From: a virus
Taxonomy: Duplodnaviria; Heunggongvirae; Uroviricota; Caudoviricetes
Length of the DNA stretch: 39,213 bases
Strand: one strand, 5' to 3'
Virus record (IMG/VR): IMGVR_UViG_2562617057_000005
This document shows positions 1 through 39,213 of the stretch, piece by piece; position 1 is the first letter of the stretch; the number at the start of each line of letters is the position of its first letter. The notes beneath the pieces were generated by a model. That model ran no database searches. It was not told the origin of the DNA and was given only the letters and a program-made list of their open reading frames with translations. The translations under genes were made by a program, and so were the position numbers.

Positions 1-1440
<1,440 letters not shown>

Positions 1441-1565
1441 TCATACAAATAAGATGACGGCATTTTACTCGCACGTTCCATGAAAATCCTTTGCAAAGCG
1501 TAATGTTTCAAATGCACAAAACTTTTATACTCTAAGAAATCAGGATTGCACCAGTACAAGCAGCC

Positions 1566-1720
1566 TGATGTTTGACGAGTTGAAGGGACGTGAGATAAAT
1601 GAATGGTGATTCGTGAGATAATTTCGAACGGGAGTGGGTTAAAACGAATGCTACCGAATAATTTTATGAAATTGTTTTGCTGTATGTGAAACGGTAGCAG
1701 TTCACAAAAAACAGAGAATA
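1566..1720 (+). repeat. putative prophage end (att-like) with Mu-type transposase-binding-like motifs
   Basis: 5'-TG at about 1566-1570, then TTGAAGGGACGTGAGATAAA resembling the Mu L1 end site (TTGAAGTACGAAAAA). Nearby are CGTGAGATAA twice (about 1589 and 1612), TTTCGAACGG and TGAAACGG. Position is ±5 bp. Confidence 0.4.
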
Positions 1721-1920
1721 TGAGTGGTAAAATTTCTAATCCGTGTTCCGTGAATGGAGAAATATTGCCCATGCCCGATAAAAATAGCAACCCATCTGAC
1801 TTTTCCGAAGATATGAAAGGATGCGTTACCTTTGAGTCAGAACGTTATGGACCATCAGGCGATTCATCAGATAACTGTTCTTCTCAGTCTGATGACGATG
1901 CACCGCCACCACGGGACTAA
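1720..1920 (+). CDS. hypothetical small acidic protein (66 aa), doubtful
   Basis: ATG ORF with a weak ribosome-binding site; acidic Ser/Asp-rich C-terminus; converges on the 214-aa gene with a 3-4 nt overlap. May be non-coding end sequence. Confidence 0.2.
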   Translation: MSGKISNPCSVNGEILPMPDKNSNPSDFSEDMKGCVTFESERYGPSGDSSDNCSSQSDDDAPPPRD

Positions 1921-2561
1921 TCTTTCTGCCGTGCGCTAATAGCTTTATTTCTGGTTCGTCTGATCCTCACCATGGCAATCTGATCTGCAGGGATATAGGT
2001 TGCCATCGCTCCCCAGCTTTTACTTTCAACATCTTTTTCAATCCATTCATCGCGCCCCGGTTTTTTTTCATGAGTGACATACATCACTATGTCTTTTTCC
2101 ACTCCTAACACAAAAGAACCGCTGGCCTGGCCTTCAAATTTCCCCGGATTTTCAGAAAGCAGCACAGTACCATTCTTCAGATAGACATACGCCTCGCTGA
2201 TATAGTATCCATGTTGATCAAACATACGCATCCAGGCAGAGGGGGTATCATCAGACCATGATATATCCTTATTTCTGAGGAATCTGTACATCCATTTACG
2301 CCCATATTTTCTCCATAATGCAGCGTATGCAAAAGCGCAAAGAAGTGTTGGAGGTGTCGCCAGCCACGAATTCAGACCTGCCCACATAACAGCCTGGTAA
2401 ACCATCATTGACAGCAAACCAAAAATCAGCGTCGAAAACGTCACCTCAATGGGTTTGTGATGGTTCTTCAGCCCCACGTTCGCAATAAAATAGCCGATAT
2501 AACCACTGGTGAGCGTCACCAGCGTTGCCCATGGCAGATTCAGCAAGGATGCATCAAACAT
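1917..2561 (-). CDS. hypothetical membrane protein, three predicted N-terminal TM helices plus a ~120-aa soluble C-terminal domain; candidate prophage cargo (superinfection exclusion or abortive infection-like)
   Basis: 214-aa ORF with GGAGG about 5 nt upstream of the ATG. Hydrophobic stretches at roughly residues 11-31, 40-63 and 68-83. Separated from the upstream mor operon by a hairpin terminator, so probably its own transcription unit. Confidence 0.7.
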   Translation of the reverse strand: MFDASLLNLPWATLVTLTSGYIGYFIANVGLKNHHKPIEVTFSTLIFGLLSMMVYQAVMWAGLNSWLATPPTLLCAFAYAALWRKYGRKWMYRFLRNKDISWSDDTPSAWMRMFDQHGYYISEAYVYLKNGTVLLSENPGKFEGQASGSFVLGVEKDIVMYVTHEKKPGRDEWIEKDVESKSWGAMATYIPADQIAMVRIRRTRNKAISARQKD

Positions 2562-2588
2562 ATTTCCTCCGGTGATATGTTTTTCTGC

Positions 2589-2628
2589 CAGAATAAAAAA
2601 AGCGCAACAGGTTATCCATTGCGCTTTT
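2589..2628. terminator. putative bidirectional rho-independent terminator
   Basis: A7 run, stem AGCGCAA...TTGCGCT, then T run (T7 when read on the minus strand). Sits downstream of the leftward mor operon and upstream of the 214-aa gene. Confidence 0.5.
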
Positions 2629-2655
2629 CATAAACCGGGAATTTATTGACGTTCG

Positions 2656-2847
2656 TTAACACTTTGGTGGCGGTGGTGGTGGGTTACGTAAAACTTTCCC
2701 GTAATACAAAACACAATTTTCATCAGGCCCGATATGCAGGCGCGAGTTGTCAATCAGCCTGTCGCATTCCCGGAGAACATATCTCGCCTCAGCAGAAGTC
2801 AGACCGTCAAAAAAAATGCCGGATAATTTCCATCGCCATATCTGCAT
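2656..2847 (-). CDS. hypothetical 63-aa protein with C-terminal Pro6 run, doubtful
   Basis: ATG ORF with weak AAGG ribosome-binding site between mor and the terminator; low-complexity C-terminus. Confidence 0.25.
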   Translation of the reverse strand: MQIWRWKLSGIFFDGLTSAEARYVLRECDRLIDNSRLHIGPDENCVLYYGKVLRNPPPPPPKC

Positions 2848-2911
2848 GGTCTGCCTTCTTCAGGGGGGGCGCTGTTGGGGGTTTTATAGCGCATTATCAC
2901 CTCGCTTTTGA

Positions 2912-3298
2912 TTAATCCCGGCTGTCATCCGGTTCATCATCGTCTTCGAATAACTGCCCCTGCAACCGGCTGATTTCTTCCTTTCTTACGCGCTTCACCA
3001 GGTTGTAAATCCAGGGAACTGAAACCCTGAATCTGCGGGACAGTTCGTGGTGGTTACGTCCGTTAAACGCCTCATAGATTTCACGGTCACGCTGGCTTAT
3101 CTTCCATCTCATCCCCATAGGAAAATAAACGTTTTGCCCGCCCCAGACCTGCATCATGCGGTTCGCGACGGCCTGACCAATCTGGTCGGCAACTTCGGGC
3201 TCAATATCAATAATCTCGCGAACGGTCTCAGAGGTATGCTGTGCCAGCTCCACCAGGAGTTCCGGCCCTTTACTTCGAAACTGATTCAGGTCGCTCAT
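2912..3298 (-). CDS. mor: Mor/C-family transcriptional activator (middle operon regulator-like)
   Basis: 128 aa; the segment GGQNVYFP...EIYEAFNGRNHHELSRRFRVS...YNLVKRVRK parallels Mu Mor (GGGQVYIP...FNGRN...). GGGAG ribosome-binding site upstream. Confidence 0.8.
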   Translation of the reverse strand: MSDLNQFRSKGPELLVELAQHTSETVREIIDIEPEVADQIGQAVANRMMQVWGGQNVYFPMGMRWKISQRDREIYEAFNGRNHHELSRRFRVSVPWIYNLVKRVRKEEISRLQGQLFEDDDEPDDSRD

Positions 3299-35010: not shown

Positions 35011-36456
35011 ATGGCAAATCTACCCGAAACCCCGCAGTGGGAAAACGGCATCTACCAGATTGAGGTCTCTGACCCCGTTCTGGGCGGACCTGACGGAATT
35101 TCTAACCGTCAGGGTAAACAACTGGCCAGCCGCACGCTGTACCTGAAGCAACAGGTTGAAAAAGGCGGGGCTGACCTTGCGAAACACATCGCGGCAGCAG
35201 ACCCGCATACCCGGTACGCACAGAAAGCCAGTCCGGCATTCACCGGCACACCAACAGCACCTACACCTGCAAATGGCGATAACAGCAAAAAGCTGGCGAC
35301 AACGGAGTTTGTGGCCAAAGCACTTGCGGCACTTGCAGGCAGCGCCCCTGAGACACTGGATACGCTTAAAGAGCTGGCTGACGCTCTCGGTAATGATCCA
35401 AACTTTGCGACTACGGTACTGAACAAGCTGGCGGAAAAGCTGGCTAAAGACCAGAACGGCGCAGATATTCCTGATCCTGCGCTGTTTGTCAAAAACCTTG
35501 GTTTACAGGAAGCGATAAATCAGGCTTCTGGCGCATTACAGAAAAACCAGAACGGCGCAGATATTCCGGGGAAAGATACCTTCACCAAAAATATTGGTGC
35601 CTGCCGCGCATATAGCGCATGGCTGAATATTGGTGGCGATAGTCAGGTCTGGACAACCGCGCAATTTATTTCGTGGCTGGAGAGTCAGGGAGCATTTAAC
35701 CATCCTTACTGGATGTGCAAAGGCTCATGGGCTTATGCAAATAATAAGGTCATTACAGATACAGGTTGCGGAAATATTTGTCTTGCAGGTGCTGTGGTGG
35801 AAGTTATTGGCACTCGCGGCGCAATGACCATACGCGTTACCACGCCGGGCACGTCCAGCGGTGGCGGAATTACTAACGCTCAATTCACTTATATTAATCA
35901 TGGTGATGCTTACGCTCCTGGCTGGCGACGAGACTACAACACGAAAAATCAACAACCTGCATTTGCTTTAGGGCAAACAGGAAGCACTGTCGGAAATGAT
36001 AAAGCTGTTGGCTGGAACTGGAATAGCGGGGTCTATAACGCAAACATTGGTGGCGCATCGACATTAATCCTCCACTTCAATATGAATACGGGGAGCTGCC
36101 CTGCTGTACAGTTCCGCGTGAATTACAGGAACGGCGGTATTTTTTATCGTTCAGCGCGTGATGGTTATGGCTTTGAAGCTGACTGGTCAGAGTTTTACAC
36201 CACAACCCGCAAACCCTCTGCGGGAGATGTTGGTGCATATACGCAGGCAGAATGTAACTCAAGGTTTATTACAGGTATTCGCCTTGGTGGTCTGTTATCT
36301 GTTCAGACATGGAATGGTCCCGGATGGTATGACAGGTCAGGTTATGTCGTTACGGGTTCAGTTAACGGAAACCGTGATGAATTAATTGATACAACTCAGG
36401 CAAGGCCAGTTCAGTATTGCATTAATGGGACGTGGTATAACGCGGGGAGTATTTAA
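35011..36456 (+). CDS. tail fibre protein (Mu S-like): constant N-terminal part plus variable C-terminal part inside the invertible segment
   Basis: 481 aa; crosses the gix-like site at about 35490-35511; C-terminal motif INGTWYNAGSI is shared with the inverted alternative copy ([12 protein letters not shown]). Confidence 0.9.
   Translation: MANLPETPQWENGIYQIEVSDPVLGGPDGISNRQGKQLASRTLYLKQQVEKGGADLAKHIAAADPHTRYAQKASPAFTGTPTAPTPANGDNSKKLATTEFVAKALAALAGSAPETLDTLKELADALGNDPNFATTVLNKLAEKLAKDQNGADIPDPALFVKNLGLQEAINQASGALQKNQNGADIPGKDTFTKNIGACRAYSAWLNIGGDSQVWTTAQFISWLESQGAFNHPYWMCKGSWAYANNKVITDTGCGNICLAGAVVEVIGTRGAMTIRVTTPGTSSGGGITNAQFTYINHGDAYAPGWRRDYNTKNQQPAFALGQTGSTVGNDKAVGWNWNSGVYNANIGGASTLILHFNMNTGSCPAVQFRVNYRNGGIFYRSARDGYGFEADWSEFYTTTRKPSAGDVGAYTQAECNSRFITGIRLGGLLSVQTWNGPGWYDRSGYVVTGSVNGNRDELIDTTQARPVQYCINGTWYNAGSI
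35451..35471 (+). repeat. 21-bp perfect direct repeat, copy 1 (CCAGAACGGCGCAGATATTCC)
   Basis: Identical to 35547..35567; encodes QNGADIP in the fibre gene. Confidence 0.6.
35490..35511. repeat. gix-like recombination site, left (CAAAAACCTTGGTTTACAGGAA)
   Basis: Inverted repeat of the site at about 38561-38582 (20 of 22 positions); resembles the Mu gix core (TTCCTGTAAACCGAGGTTTTGGATAA) as I remember it. Confidence 0.7.
35547..35567 (+). repeat. 21-bp perfect direct repeat, copy 2
   Basis: Identical to 35451..35471; lies inside the invertible segment, copy 1 outside. Confidence 0.6.
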
Positions 36457-36458
36457 CG

Positions 36459-36992
36459 ATGATGCACTTAAAAAACATTTCTGCTGGTAATCCTGAAACA
36501 AAAGAGCAATACCAGCTAACAAAGCAATTTAACATCAAATGGCTTTATACAGAGGATGGGAAAAACTGGTATGAGGAGCAAAAGAACTTTCAGCCTGATA
36601 CGTTGAAAATGGTCTATGACCACAACGGCGTTATTATTTGTATTGAAAAGGATGTTTCAGCAATTAATCCGGAAGGCGCAAGCGTCGTTGAGGTTCCTGA
36701 TATTACAGCAAATCGCCGGGCTGATATTTCAGGTAAATGGATGTTCAAAGATGGCGTAGTGATAAAGCGAACTTATACCGGGGAAGAGCAGAGGCAACAG
36801 GCGGAAAATGAAAAGCAAAGCCTGCTACAGCTCGTCAGGGATAAAACCCAGCTGTGGGACTCACAGCTACAGCTGGGCATCATTTCCGCCGGGAATAAGC
36901 AGAAATTAACCGAGTGGATGCTCTACGCGCAGAAGGTCGAATCCACAGACACCTCCAGTCTGCCAGTAACGTTTCCCGAACAACCAGAATGA
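36459..36992 (+). CDS. tail fibre assembly protein (Mu U-like)
   Basis: 177 aa; homologous to the inverted 37021..37548 gene (both begin MMHLKNI.AGN). Confidence 0.85.
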   Translation: MMHLKNISAGNPETKEQYQLTKQFNIKWLYTEDGKNWYEEQKNFQPDTLKMVYDHNGVIICIEKDVSAINPEGASVVEVPDITANRRADISGKWMFKDGVVIKRTYTGEEQRQQAENEKQSLLQLVRDKTQLWDSQLQLGIISAGNKQKLTEWMLYAQKVESTDTSSLPVTFPEQPE

Positions 36993-37020: not shown

Positions 37021-37548
37021 TTACTCAGGCTTTTGTGGCCATTCTGGCTTTGCCGTATCCACACGGCTGACCAGAACACTGTAGCGTTCCCATGCTTCCA
37101 GTCGTGTGCGTTCCTCGTCCGTCGCCATATTCAGCCTGACAGCGCGTTCCAGCGGCTGGATGACTGATTCAGCTTCGGAAAGCAATGCGGCCTTTTGTGA
37201 TTCGGCCTGTTGTTGCTGTTCGTCAGCCGTATAAATCCGTTTAACCACAGCTCCGTCCTTAAACATCCACTTACCGGAATCATCAGCACGACGATTAGCT
37301 GTAATATCAGGAACCTCAACGACGCTATAACCTTCAGGGTTAAGCGTGGAGGCATCTTTGGTGATGGCGACAATAATATTATTTGCATCGTAAACAATCT
37401 TTATTGTGTCTGGCTGAAAGTTCTTCACTTCCTCATACCAGTTTTTTCCGTCCTCAGAGTAAAGCCAGATGACTCCGTGCTTCTTTGTTAACTCATACTG
37501 CTCCACTGTTTTAGCATTACCTGCTTTTATGTTCTTTAAGTGCATCAT
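37021..37548 (-). CDS. alternative tail fibre assembly protein (Mu U'-like)
   Basis: Start at the [10 protein letters not shown] Met pair of track ORF 37021..37581; paralogue of 36459..36992. Confidence 0.8.
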
Positions 37549-37549
37549 A

Positions 37550-38560
37550 TTAAATACTCGCCACATTATACCAGGTGCCATTTATATACTTTTGCACTGG
37601 CCTGTAATGAACGCCTGCAATATTATCGGCAGAGTTTTTTCCGGTATCCTGTACGTTAATCCCCGTCAGTACATAGCCTGACGGGCACTGAAAATTCCAT
37701 GTTTGCCAGTTGTTCACTCCATAATATTGCTGTGAACCAAGCCGGACATCTTTCACATATCTGGAATCAAAATTGCCATAGTTGCCGGGAATAACTTGCG
37801 AGCCGCAAAGCCAGTTCCCGTTATTATCCATGTACGCCTGACCATCGGTGCCATTGGCTGTCCTTGAGTTATTAATCATGTAGATGCCAAATTGCTTATT
37901 TCCCAGACCGCCAATCATAAATTTGCGGTCGGCATGGTCCTGACGGAGCAAAGCCTGAGCACCATCAGTGGATACCGCATTACGGCCCAGAATAACATTC
38001 TGGTCACGCATATGAATCCACATGCCGGTACTACTGTTAATTGCAAAACGGTTTGCAAATATATCCCCTGTAACATCAAGACCATGCCCCATGCTTATCC
38101 GGCCAGTTCTGAGATTAAGCGTAAAGGGGCGTAGTGGCCCTATATTACCATTTTCCCCTTCATTCTCTCGTGTAGGGATGATATGCAGGCATTCTTCAGA
38201 ACGACGAAAAATGGCACCAAAAGATGAATTAAATATCCTCAGTGCATTGACTGTCGATATTTTCACTTCACTGCTGAAAAGGGCTTCAACAAGAACAGAC
38301 AAAGCATTCCATTTAAGATTCATCAGGTCTTTAGGCCGGGTGCCAATGATGCGGTGTCTCCATTTGAAATATTCATTGCCGTTGTTGCCTGTTTCAAACC
38401 ACATGTAGGAATCGGTGTCTGCATCCGAATTATTTTTAAACCCAATCTTTGCCCAGTCAGTATTTCGAATCCAGGCAAGGATTGAGTCGTTTTCAAAAGT
38501 AAGTCCACCGGACAAGGTATCGCCTGTCTTTTGGACAGCGTTATCAGCCTTGTTTACCGT
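37550..38560 (-). CDS. alternative tail-fibre variable C-terminal segment (Mu S'v-like); no own start, expressed after inversion
   Basis: Open frame runs through the right gix-like site in the same phase as the fibre gene through the left site (both read GLQE across the core); ends [12 protein letters not shown]. Confidence 0.8.
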
Positions 38561-38582
38561 TTCCTGTAAACCAACGTTTTCG
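38561..38582. repeat. gix-like recombination site, right (TTCCTGTAAACCAACGTTTTCG)
   Basis: Inverted copy of the left site. Confidence 0.7.
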
Positions 38583-38631
38583 TCTTTATCCCTACCTATA
38601 CCAACTATGTATTTTTCACGAAACAAAGAGG

Positions 38632-39213
38632 ATGTTTTTTATGCAAATTGGCTATATTCGTGTGTCAACAAATGACCAGAACACGGATTTACAACGCAAT
38701 GCACTGAACTGCGCAGGATGTGAACTGATTTTTGAAGATAAAATCAGCGGAACGAAATCAGCCAGACCGGGATTGAAAAAACTGCTCAGAACGCTATCAG
38801 AAGGAGATACGCTGGTTGTCTGGAAGCTGGACAGACTGGGCAGAAGTATGAAACACCTGATCACGCTTATTGAGGAATTGCGGGAAAAAGGTGTTAATTT
38901 CCGTAGTCTGACGGACAGCATTGACACATCAACACCCATGGGGCGTTTCTTTTTTCACGTCATGGGGGCTTTAGCCGAAATGGAACGTGAATTAATTGTA
39001 GAGCGTACACTGGCCGGACTGGCAGCAGCACGTGCACAGGGGCGTATTGGTGGACGTCGTCCGAAACTGACAAAAGAGCAACATGAACAAATAGCAAGGC
39101 TGATCAAAAATGGCTATAGCAGGAAACAGTTGGCAATTATTTACGATATCGGTATATCGACGATTTATCGTTATCACCCTGTAGAGGAACTTCAAACTCA
39201 AGCTGAGTTGTAA
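38632..39213 (+). CDS. gin: serine recombinase DNA invertase, Gin/Pin/Cin/Hin family
   Basis: 193 aa, complete (stop at 39211-39213). MQIGYIRVSTNDQNTDLQRNAL...VVWKLDRLGRSMKHLI...GRFFFHVMGALAEMERELI..GRIGGRRPKLT matches Mu Gin closely as I remember it; catalytic Ser in YIRVST. Confidence 0.95.
   Translation: MFFMQIGYIRVSTNDQNTDLQRNALNCAGCELIFEDKISGTKSARPGLKKLLRTLSEGDTLVVWKLDRLGRSMKHLITLIEELREKGVNFRSLTDSIDTSTPMGRFFFHVMGALAEMERELIVERTLAGLAAARAQGRIGGRRPKLTKEQHEQIARLIKNGYSRKQLAIIYDIGISTIYRYHPVEELQTQAEL

What the first reader, a model, noticed from the sequence alone, without database searches (positions are those of the whole stretch)
35451..35567. Perfect 21-bp direct repeats bracketing the left gix-like site
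CCAGAACGGCGCAGATATTCC occurs at 35451-35471 (constant part) and 35547-35567 (variable part), on either side of the crossover site, giving a duplicated QNGADIP peptide. The alternative variable copy near the right site lacks this repeat. It may be a footprint of a past recombination or duplication at the invertase site, and could allow RecA-dependent deletion of the crossover site, locking the orientation.
Basis: seen in the sequence. Interest (0 to 1): 0.35.

Follow-up and report, generated by a model that had tools for sequence, protein, structure and literature searches.

The report
Conserved tail-fibre joint motif, present twice
The two identical 21-base stretches are two neighbouring copies of a short protein motif that many phage tail-fibre genes carry where the fibre shaft meets the receptor-binding part, and phage Mu has the same layout, so the feature is real but ordinary.

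Summary
CCAGAACGGCGCAGATATTCC occurs exactly twice, at 35451-35471 and 35547-35567. The copies are 96 nt (32 codons) apart, in frame, on either side of the left gix-like site. The alternative cassette has no copy.

It is not a recent footprint of recombination at the invertase site. The copies are the cores of two adjacent 32-residue units: VLNKLAEKLAKDQNGADIPDPALFVKNLGLQE and AINQASGALQKNQNGADIPGKDTFTKNIGACR. Both are instances of a widespread tail-fibre junction block, L-x-K-x-QNGADIP-x4-F-x-x-N-x-G. I found 93 instances in 67 of 80 related loci (Photorhabdus, Xenorhabdus, Pantoea, Erwinia, Salmonella and others), with free synonymous variation.

Phage Mu's G(-) fibre S' (PDB 8JU3) and SfMu have the same double layout at the same spacing. 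So do 20 of 150 protein clusters at 50% identity.

Each copy belongs to its own module. Unit 1 closes the constant shaft and holds the crossover site. Unit 2 is the native N-terminal edge of the Mu Sv'-type receptor-binding module. The 21-mer is simply the commonest coding variant of the peptide.

A deletion between the copies would be in frame and would remove the site. No such variant was found, and 21 bp is marginal for RecA. Low interest.

The parts
35011..36456 (+). Tail-fibre gene as currently expressed (481 aa): constant shaft (Sc) up to the crossover site, followed by a Mu G(-)-type Sv' receptor-binding part
   Evidence: ORF. Residues 137-481 match PDB 8ju3, 'Tail fiber protein S, S'' of Mu, at E = 7.7e-228. 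The invertible part is about 91% identical to the Mu, SfMu, P1 and P7 segments.
35416..35511 (+). Unit 1 of the 32-residue joint block (VLNKLAEKLAKDQNGADIPDPALFVKNLGLQE). It forms the end of the constant part, and its last 26 nt are the crossover site.
   Evidence: unit boundaries; 14/32 identical to unit 2. The consensus block in 94 instances has invariant L-4, F+11 and N+14, and K-2 in 93 of 94.
35451..35471 (+). Repeat copy 1 (CCAGAACGGCGCAGATATTCC), encoding QNGADIP of unit 1
35486..35511 (+). Left gix-like crossover site TTGTCAAAAACC-TT-GGTTTACAGGAA (central TT at 35498-35499), encoding FVKNLGLQE
   Evidence: (I5). Aligns with Mu gix TTATCCAAAACCTCGGTTTACAGGAA. Homology to other genomes breaks here.
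35512..35607 (+). Unit 2 of the joint block (AINQASGALQKNQNGADIPGKDTFTKNIGACR). It is the first 32 codons of the invertible Sv' module.
   Evidence: It is always present at the start of Sv'-type modules, whatever the N-terminal shaft (117 of the 120 top homologues have unit 2 only).
35547..35567 (+). Repeat copy 2, encoding QNGADIP of unit 2
   Evidence: The identical 21-mer is in Mu Sv'.
36459..36992 (+). Tail-fibre assembly gene of the expressed cassette
   Evidence: Pfam Caudo_TAP, E = 1.7e-35
37021..37581 (-). Tail-fibre assembly gene of the silent cassette
   Evidence: Caudo_TAP
37550..38560 (-). Silent alternative variable fibre part. It has no NGADIP motif.
38561..38586 (-). Right gix-like crossover site AAGACGAAAACG-TT-GGTTTACAGGAA, with the same central TT as the left site
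   Evidence: (I5)
38641..39213 (+). Serine DNA invertase (190 aa)
   Evidence: Resolvase (E = 1.6e-51) and HTH_7 domains. About 71% identical to Mu Gin and P1 Cin (136/193 and 137/190 aligned positions). Gene call of 190 aa.

Best explanation
The two 21-bp copies are the most conserved cores of two adjacent, in-frame copies of a 32-residue tail-fibre 'joint' unit. The unit is a short segment x-N-x-A-x-x-x-L-x followed by K-(D/N)-Q-N-G-A-D-I-P-x4-F-x-K-N-(L/I)-G.

This block is a widespread, protein-level-conserved element that marks the boundary between fibre shaft and receptor-binding modules in enterobacterial myophage, tailocin and prophage fibres.

Unit 1 belongs to the constant shaft module. 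Its C-terminal half, FVKNLGLQE, is encoded by the near-palindromic DNA that serves as the Gin-type crossover site. Unit 2 is the native N-terminal boundary of the Mu Sv'-type receptor-binding module and travels with that module.

In this orientation of the invertible segment the two modules abut, so the fibre carries the block twice. After inversion it carries it once. Phage Mu behaves the same way: S' has two blocks and S has one.

Shown:
- the anatomy of the two units;
- the distribution of the block across genera;
- the independence of the two copies;
- the synonymous drift of the coding sequence.

Inferred:
- the block has a structural role in the trimeric fibre;
- it doubles as a homologous-recombination joint for swapping modules;
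- the two units descend from an ancient duplication or from juxtaposition of two modules.
For: - Similarity goes beyond the 21 nt. The units share 14 of 32 residues. Outside QNGADIP they share 7 of 25, which only 0.1% of window pairs within the same protein reach. At DNA level they share 40 of the first 57 nt.
- Mu (Sc ...LAKDRNGADIPNKPLFIQNLGLQE plus Sv' ...QQNQNGADIPGKDTFTKNIG) and SfMu have the same two blocks at the same 32-residue spacing. In Mu the DNA copies differ at 2 of 21 nt.
- In the genome scan, 93 NGADIP-type instances occur in 67 of 80 loci across Photorhabdus, Xenorhabdus, Pantoea, Erwinia, Mixta, Arsenophonus and Salmonella. Almost all read L(A/E)-K(N/D)QNGADIP-(D/N)KxxF(V/I)KNLGLxET, and third codon positions vary.
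- Among the 150 best representatives of 50%-identity clusters, 20 have two blocks exactly 32 residues apart, on several different shafts. P0228 has a second unit that is a full copy, including FIDNLGLRD.
- Unit 2 is present in all 120 top homologues. In 117 of them it is the only block, and the N-terminus is P2-H-like or P1-S-like.
- The Salmonella fibre in L012 (KDQNGADILDRDLFVHNIGAARAY) is intermediate between unit 1 and unit 2.
- The copies are independent. The exact unit-1 21-mer occurs in relatives with other cassettes and no unit 2. Only 10 of 29 metagenomic copies of this shaft end have the exact 21-mer, and the rest differ synonymously. The close relative L092 has 20/21.
- Homology breakpoints in E. 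coli genomes fall at the crossover site.
Against: - The structural role of the block is not shown. The AlphaFold2 monomer model was unusable (mean pLDDT 32.8), and I could not inspect which residues are ordered in 8JU3.
- No paper in the searchable library describes the motif, so its status as a named element rests on this survey.
- The loci were retrieved with patterns that include KNQNGADI and EKLAKDQN. The survey is therefore enriched for the motif and cannot give its frequency among all fibres.
- Ancient duplication cannot be distinguished from independent acquisition of two related blocks.
Confidence: 0.85

Rival explanations
1. A recent local event, either a duplication or gene conversion between the two sides of the crossover site, created the perfect repeat as a footprint of aberrant recombination at the invertase site.
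For: The identity is perfect over 21 nt, whereas Mu has 19/21 and L092 has 20/21. The copies flank the site symmetrically enough to suggest a link.
Against: Both 21-mers pre-exist separately. Unit 1 is identical in at least 7 genomes without unit 2, and unit 2 is identical in Mu. Identity collapses immediately outside the peptide core, with 15 of the next 36 nt identical. The 21-mer is the commonest coding variant of the peptide. The double layout is old and spans diverged clusters.
Confidence: 0.04
2. The direct repeats act as a substrate for an in-frame 96-nt deletion, by replication slippage or RecA, that removes the left crossover site and locks the fibre in the Sv'-type state. On this reading the deletion is a biologically used or recurrent route.
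For: The deletion would be in frame and would give ...LAKDQNGADIPGKDTFTKNIG.... Natural fibres with exactly this single-block architecture exist, including ones with a similar shaft: P0183 and P0189, and also L011 and L012. Such a product would therefore probably fold.
Against: No junction was found in E. coli complete genomes (0 places covering at least 80% of a synthetic junction), IMG/VR or metagenomes. No 449-aa variant appears among the top homologues from 5.8 billion proteins. The denominator is small, because this module combination is rare: 3 proteins, and none of 29 metagenomic shaft ends carries unit 2. From my own knowledge, 21-26 bp is marginal for RecA. The single-block fibres are only 60-70% identical and may equally be ancestral.
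Confidence: 0.07
3. The 21-mers are DNA-level accessory sites, for example for the invertase, Fis or another protein, that flank the crossover site and influence inversion.
For: They lie 15 nt upstream and 36 nt downstream of the 26-bp site.
Against: The right site has no such flank. Orthologous copies vary at synonymous positions. The block occurs in many fibres without any invertase context and in tandem same-strand genes. From my own knowledge, Gin-family sites need only the 26-bp sites plus the enhancer inside the invertase gene.
Confidence: 0.02

Closest known systems
Phage Mu G-segment tail fibre S' (Sc + Sv', gp49N/gp52; PDB 8JU3, Mori et al. 2024, Virology 593:110017, as cited in PMC11915804), and SfMu and D108
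   Same: The invertible segment is the same, about 91% identical in DNA. The Sv' part is the same (residues 137-481, E = 7.7e-228 to 8ju3). The layout of two NGADIP blocks 32 residues apart, straddling gixL in the G(-) orientation, is the same. The invertase is of the same type (about 71% identical).
   Different: The constant shaft upstream of LAKD is unrelated to Mu's and resembles P2-H-type shafts (SPAFTGTPTAPTP...LGNDPNFATT). Homology with SfMu starts only at 35440. The central dinucleotide of the crossover sites is TT rather than Mu's TC. The two DNA copies are 21/21 identical here and 19/21 in Mu. The prophage has no com/mom after the invertase.
P1/P7 C-segment fibre S' and P2-H-like fibres carrying the same receptor-binding module
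   Same: They carry unit 2 (LQKNQNGADIPGKDTFTKNIGACRA) at the start of the same domain.
   Different: They have only this one block. It is preceded by EYLGLQETVNQASGALQ in P2-like fibres and by EDLNLEQTVELAAGALQ in P1-like fibres, and there is no unit 1.
Conserved-motif recombination joints in fibre genes: T-even 'His boxes', and the conserved segments around the Min/Cin crossover sites described by Sandmeier and by Haggard-Ljungquist in 1992-1994. Recalled from memory, not read here.
   Same: A short conserved peptide-coding block lies at module boundaries, where unrelated N- and C-terminal fibre parts are joined.
   Different: The sequence motif is different.

Membership tests
Gin/Cin/Pin-type invertible tail-fibre switch (Mu G segment type) | Serine invertase (resolvase catalytic domain plus HTH) encoded next to the segment | tested here: met
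   Resolvase E = 1.6e-51 and HTH_7 E = 1.3e-13. About 71% identical to Gin and Cin.
Gin/Cin/Pin-type invertible tail-fibre switch (Mu G segment type) | Two 26-bp crossover sites in inverted orientation with the same central dinucleotide, one of them inside the fibre ORF | tested here: met
   Sites at 35486-35511 (+) and 38561-38586 (-). The right halves are identical and the central dinucleotide is TT in both.
Gin/Cin/Pin-type invertible tail-fibre switch (Mu G segment type) | Two opposed cassettes, each with a variable fibre part and its assembly gene | tested here: met
   About 91% DNA identity to Mu G, SfMu and P1 C.
Gin/Cin/Pin-type invertible tail-fibre switch (Mu G segment type) | Fis-dependent enhancer in the 5' part of the invertase gene, and actual inversion | not tested
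   The enhancer sequence was not examined. Inversion cannot be observed from one assembly.
Fibre joint block L-x-K-x-QNGADIP-x4-F-x-x-N-x-G (defined here, not a curated family) | Positions that do not vary, or nearly so, across 94 instances: L-4, K-2, F+11 and N+14 around the QNGADIP core | tested here: met
   Both units have all of them: LAKDQNGADIPDPALFVKNLG and LQKNQNGADIPGKDTFTKNIG.
Fibre joint block L-x-K-x-QNGADIP-x4-F-x-x-N-x-G (defined here, not a curated family) | Location at the boundary between a conserved shaft and a variable C-terminal module | tested here: met
Collagen-like or other long tandem periodicity | An array of many short head-to-tail repeats (G-X-Y or similar) spanning the region | tested here: not met
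   Tandem Repeats Finder finds only a 9-nt, 2.3-copy repeat at 35320-35341. There are just two 32-residue units.
Recent DNA duplication or gene-conversion footprint | The copies are each other's closest relatives and are not found separately elsewhere | tested here: not met
   Each 21-mer is found on its own in other genomes.

The most novel reading that the evidence does not exclude
The 32-residue block could be a general 'universal joint' of enterobacterial contractile-tail fibres that does two jobs. It would be a structural connector, and it would also be the DNA substrate both for homologous module swapping and for Gin-family site-specific inversion, through the palindromic coding of KNLGL. 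Where two blocks sit in tandem, slippage between them would occasionally fuse shaft and receptor-binding module, erasing the crossover site and converting a switchable fibre into a fixed one. The natural single-block fibres (P0183, P0189, L011, L012) would be products of that route.
Probability: 0.1. Interest if true: 0.35.

Novelty: new member of a known kind. Interest (0 to 1): 0.1.

Why it matters
It matters little for this locus. The repeat is a by-product of how mosaic fibre genes are built. It is not a new element and not a scar of invertase activity.

The survey has a modest practical use. The block K(D/N)QNGADIP...FxKN(L/I)G gives a recognisable landmark for the shaft-to-receptor-binding boundary, and for Gin-type crossover sites, in prophage, tailocin and Mu/P1/P2-type fibre genes. 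That can help annotation and the design of chimeric fibres.

Tried and rejected
- Structure prediction. The AlphaFold2 monomer model of the fibre, built from an 18-sequence alignment, had mean pLDDT 32.8. It was unusable, so I did not run a fold search.
- Literature. I searched for the peptide (NGADIP), for crossover-site or conserved-motif work and for the Mu fibre structures. Nothing describes the motif, and Mori et al. 2024 is not held.
- Tandem Repeats Finder. It does not see the two units, because DNA identity is only 43/96.
- Deletion variants. I looked with a synthetic-junction megablast in E. coli genomes and with degenerate junction patterns in IMG/VR and in metagenomes. All were negative. 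The positive control found 29 shaft ends on 28 stretches of DNA, none with unit 2, so the negative result is weakly informative.
- Context of the fused-architecture protein P0183. I tried to fetch it, but it is not on record.
- Unit 2 as a second, cryptic crossover site. TTCACCAAAAATATTGGTGCCTGCCG matches only the left half-site and the centre of gix, and the right half does not match. Rejected.
- Chance. Rejected.
- Collagen-like periodicity. Rejected.

Full report
**1. Observation**

The 21-mer CCAGAACGGCGCAGATATTCC occurs exactly twice in the window, at 35451-35471 and 35547-35567 on the + strand. No additional match appears with up to 3 mismatches, and none occurs in 100 shuffles. The repeat extends to 26 nt with one mismatch (D5).

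The copies are 96 nt apart, which is 32 codons. Both lie in the frame of the 481-aa fibre ORF 35011-36456 and both encode QNGADIP.

They bracket a 26-bp gix-like site, TTGTCAAAAACC-TT-GGTTTACAGGAA, at 35486-35511. Its inverted partner, AAGACGAAAACG-TT-GGTTTACAGGAA, lies at 38561-38586 on the minus strand, next to a serine invertase gene at 38641-39213. The silent alternative cassette has no copy.

**2. Context**

The window holds a Mu-like transposable prophage. It is 95% identical to Escherichia phage PhiKM from about position 2975. The window is found in assembly GCA_000167915.2, record AAKB02000001.1.

The invertible segment is about 91% identical to the Mu G segment, SfMu, D108 and the P1/P7 C segments. 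It lies in the orientation that corresponds to Mu G(-). The expressed fibre matches the solved Mu S' fibre (PDB 8ju3) over residues 137-481 at E = 7.7e-228. According to the reference list of PMC11915804, that structure comes from Mori et al. 2024.

The constant shaft is not Mu's. Homology to SfMu starts only at 35440. In E. coli genomes, homology to either side breaks at the crossover site. The same shaft, at 99-100% identity, is joined at that site to quite different cassette sets in E. coli 3-72, A33, 2014C-3075 and ATCC 43896.

**3. What the repeat is**

At protein level the similarity extends well beyond seven residues. Residues 136-167 (VLNKLAEKLAKDQNGADIPDPALFVKNLGLQE) and 168-199 (AINQASGALQKNQNGADIPGKDTFTKNIGACR) are two directly adjacent 32-residue units that share 14 identities.
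- Outside QNGADIP they share 7 of 25 positions. Only 0.1% of window pairs in the same protein reach that.
- Unit 1 occupies 35416-35511 and ends exactly with the crossover site.
- Unit 2 occupies 35512-35607 and is the first 32 codons of the invertible module.

Phage Mu and SfMu have the same two blocks at the same spacing...LAKDRNGADIPNKPLFIQNLGLQETVNQASGALQ(Q/K)NQNGADIPGKDTFTKNIG.... In Mu the DNA copies differ at 2 of 21 positions.

**4. How general the block is**

I scanned one genome per species with the junction region as query. This returned 80 loci. Of these, 67 contain 93 NGADIP-type instances, from Photorhabdus, Xenorhabdus, Pantoea, Erwinia, Mixta, Arsenophonus, Salmonella and others.

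Almost all instances read L(A/E)-K(N/D)QNGADIP-(D/N)KxxF(V/I)KNLGLxET and sit between a conserved shaft and a variable C-terminal part. Across 94 QNGADIP instances, L-4, F+11 and N+14 are invariant and K-2 is present in 93. Both window units have all four. Third codon positions vary freely, so selection acts on the peptide.

The retrieval patterns included the motif, so these numbers show breadth, not frequency.

An unbiased HMMER scan of 1.84 billion cluster representatives gave 516 hits. Among the best 150:
- 20 have two blocks exactly 32 residues apart, on several unrelated shafts;
- 68 have one block;
- P0228 has a second unit that is a full copy, including the FIDNLGLRD part.

Single-block fibres fall into two kinds.
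- In the first kind, unit 2 is preceded by a crossover-type LGLQETVNQASGALQ. This is the P2-H-like and P1-like arrangement, seen in 117 of the 120 closest homologues.
- In the second kind, a shaft helix runs directly into KDQNGADIPGKDTFTKNIGA. Examples are L011, P0163 and others, and the Salmonella L012 form KDQNGADILDRDLFVHNIGAARAY, which is intermediate between units 1 and 2.

In Xenorhabdus the block flanks both sides of the Sv'-like subdomain.

**5. Why the DNA is identical**

Each copy belongs to its own module and exists without the other. The exact unit-1 21-mer is in relatives that lack unit 2. The exact unit-2 21-mer is in Mu Sv'.

The 21-mer is the commonest coding variant of the peptide, found in 12 of 95 instances, although several of these share one lineage. 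Among cross-locus pairs, 3.5% are identical.

There is no sign that identity is maintained.
- In metagenomes only 10 of 29 copies of this shaft end have the exact 21-mer. The others differ synonymously.
- In the close relative L092 the two copies differ at one position.
- Immediately after the 21-mer, identity drops to 15 of 36 nt.

There is therefore no evidence for a recent duplication, for gene conversion, or for DNA-level constraint.

**6. Mechanism (inferred)**

The block is most simply a structural connector of the trimeric fibre. Because it is conserved, it also serves as a joint at which modules are exchanged.

The peptide KNLGL is naturally encoded by the near-palindrome AAAAACCTNGGTTTR, which forms the core of the Gin-type site. 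Of 67 KNLGL instances, 30 have AAAC[CG]NNGGTTT.

In switchable fibres the crossover lies in the C-terminal half of the shaft's block. An Sv'-type cassette brings its own complete block. The fibre therefore has two blocks in one orientation and one in the other.

I could not confirm the structural role. The monomer AlphaFold2 model was unusable, and the 8JU3 coordinates could not be inspected.

**7. The deletion or locking idea**

Recombination between the copies would delete 96 nt, remove the left site and leave a 449-aa in-frame fibre...LAKDQNGADIPGKDTFTKNIG.... Natural fibres with this fused architecture exist, even on a similar shaft (P0183, P0189). Such a product is therefore plausible.

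No near-identical deletion derivative was found in any of these searches:
- 5,426 complete E. coli genomes;
- IMG/VR;
- metagenomes;
- the top homologues from 5.8 billion proteins.

This module combination is rare, so absence is weak evidence. Only three proteins have it, and none of 29 metagenomic shaft ends carries unit 2.

From my own knowledge of E. coli recombination, the minimal efficient processing segment is about 20-27 bp. Short, close direct repeats are deleted mainly by RecA-independent replication slippage. The 'RecA-dependent' qualifier is therefore unlikely.

**8. Verdict**

The interpretation as a footprint at the invertase site is not supported, because the repeat is part of a longer unit common to these fibre genes. 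The deletion idea is possible but has no evidence behind it.

This is a new combination of known modules in a known kind of system, and it is of low interest.

Noticed in passing
L082 (1889, 4120, 5103, 6830, 8564, 10081, all + strand); also L080, L057, L070, L084, L063: Photorhabdus loci carry three to six fibre genes in tandem on the same strand. Each has its own K-x-Q-NGADIP...FxKNLGL block, so the block is not tied to invertase-controlled cassettes.
   Followed up: no
L097 (metagenome contig OGTR01000283.1), 1321-1364 (+) and 3252-3295 (-): Two copies of the window-type shaft end lie in inverted orientation, symmetrically placed in a 4.6-kb contig, and each is joined to a different cassette. 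This is either an assembly artefact of a mixed-orientation population or long inverted repeats as in P1.
   Followed up: no
window 35492-35506, and fibre loci L011-L090: The conserved peptide KNLGL is encoded by the near-palindrome AAAAACCTNGGTTTR, which is the core of the Gin-type crossover site. Of 67 KNLGL instances, 30 carry AAAC[CG]NNGGTTT.
   Followed up: partly
window 38632-39213, and L091 9204-11446: The prophage ends right after the invertase gene, and the next gene is a host aminotransferase. There is no com/mom module as in Mu and SfMu. The invertase more likely starts at ATG 38641 (190 aa, as called in the source record) than at 38632.
   Followed up: partly
L019 (Sulfoacidibacillus, 2.6-kb contig), L027 (Micromonospora, 383-nt contig), L011 (Bacillota MAG): Enterobacterial-type fibre genes with the NGADIP block sit on short contigs assigned to unrelated phyla. 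This is probably contamination or misbinning.
   Followed up: no
window 1-2975: The window starts with about 3 kb of host DNA. Positions 33-1529 are 77% identical to a Salmonella chloride-channel gene region. The Mu-like prophage, 95% identical to phage PhiKM, follows. Its tail and baseplate genes are P2-like (GpU, X, D, V, W, J, I).
   Followed up: no
L006 4051-5517 (E. coli PEC422): A Mu-type prophage in the G(-) orientation has the same two-block fibre, but the fibre gene is annotated as a pseudogene with an internal stop.
   Followed up: no
window 35320-35341: A small 9-nt repeat of 2.3 copies (GCACTTGCAG) encodes ALAALAG in the shaft. It is the only repeat that Tandem Repeats Finder reports in the fibre gene.
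   Followed up: no
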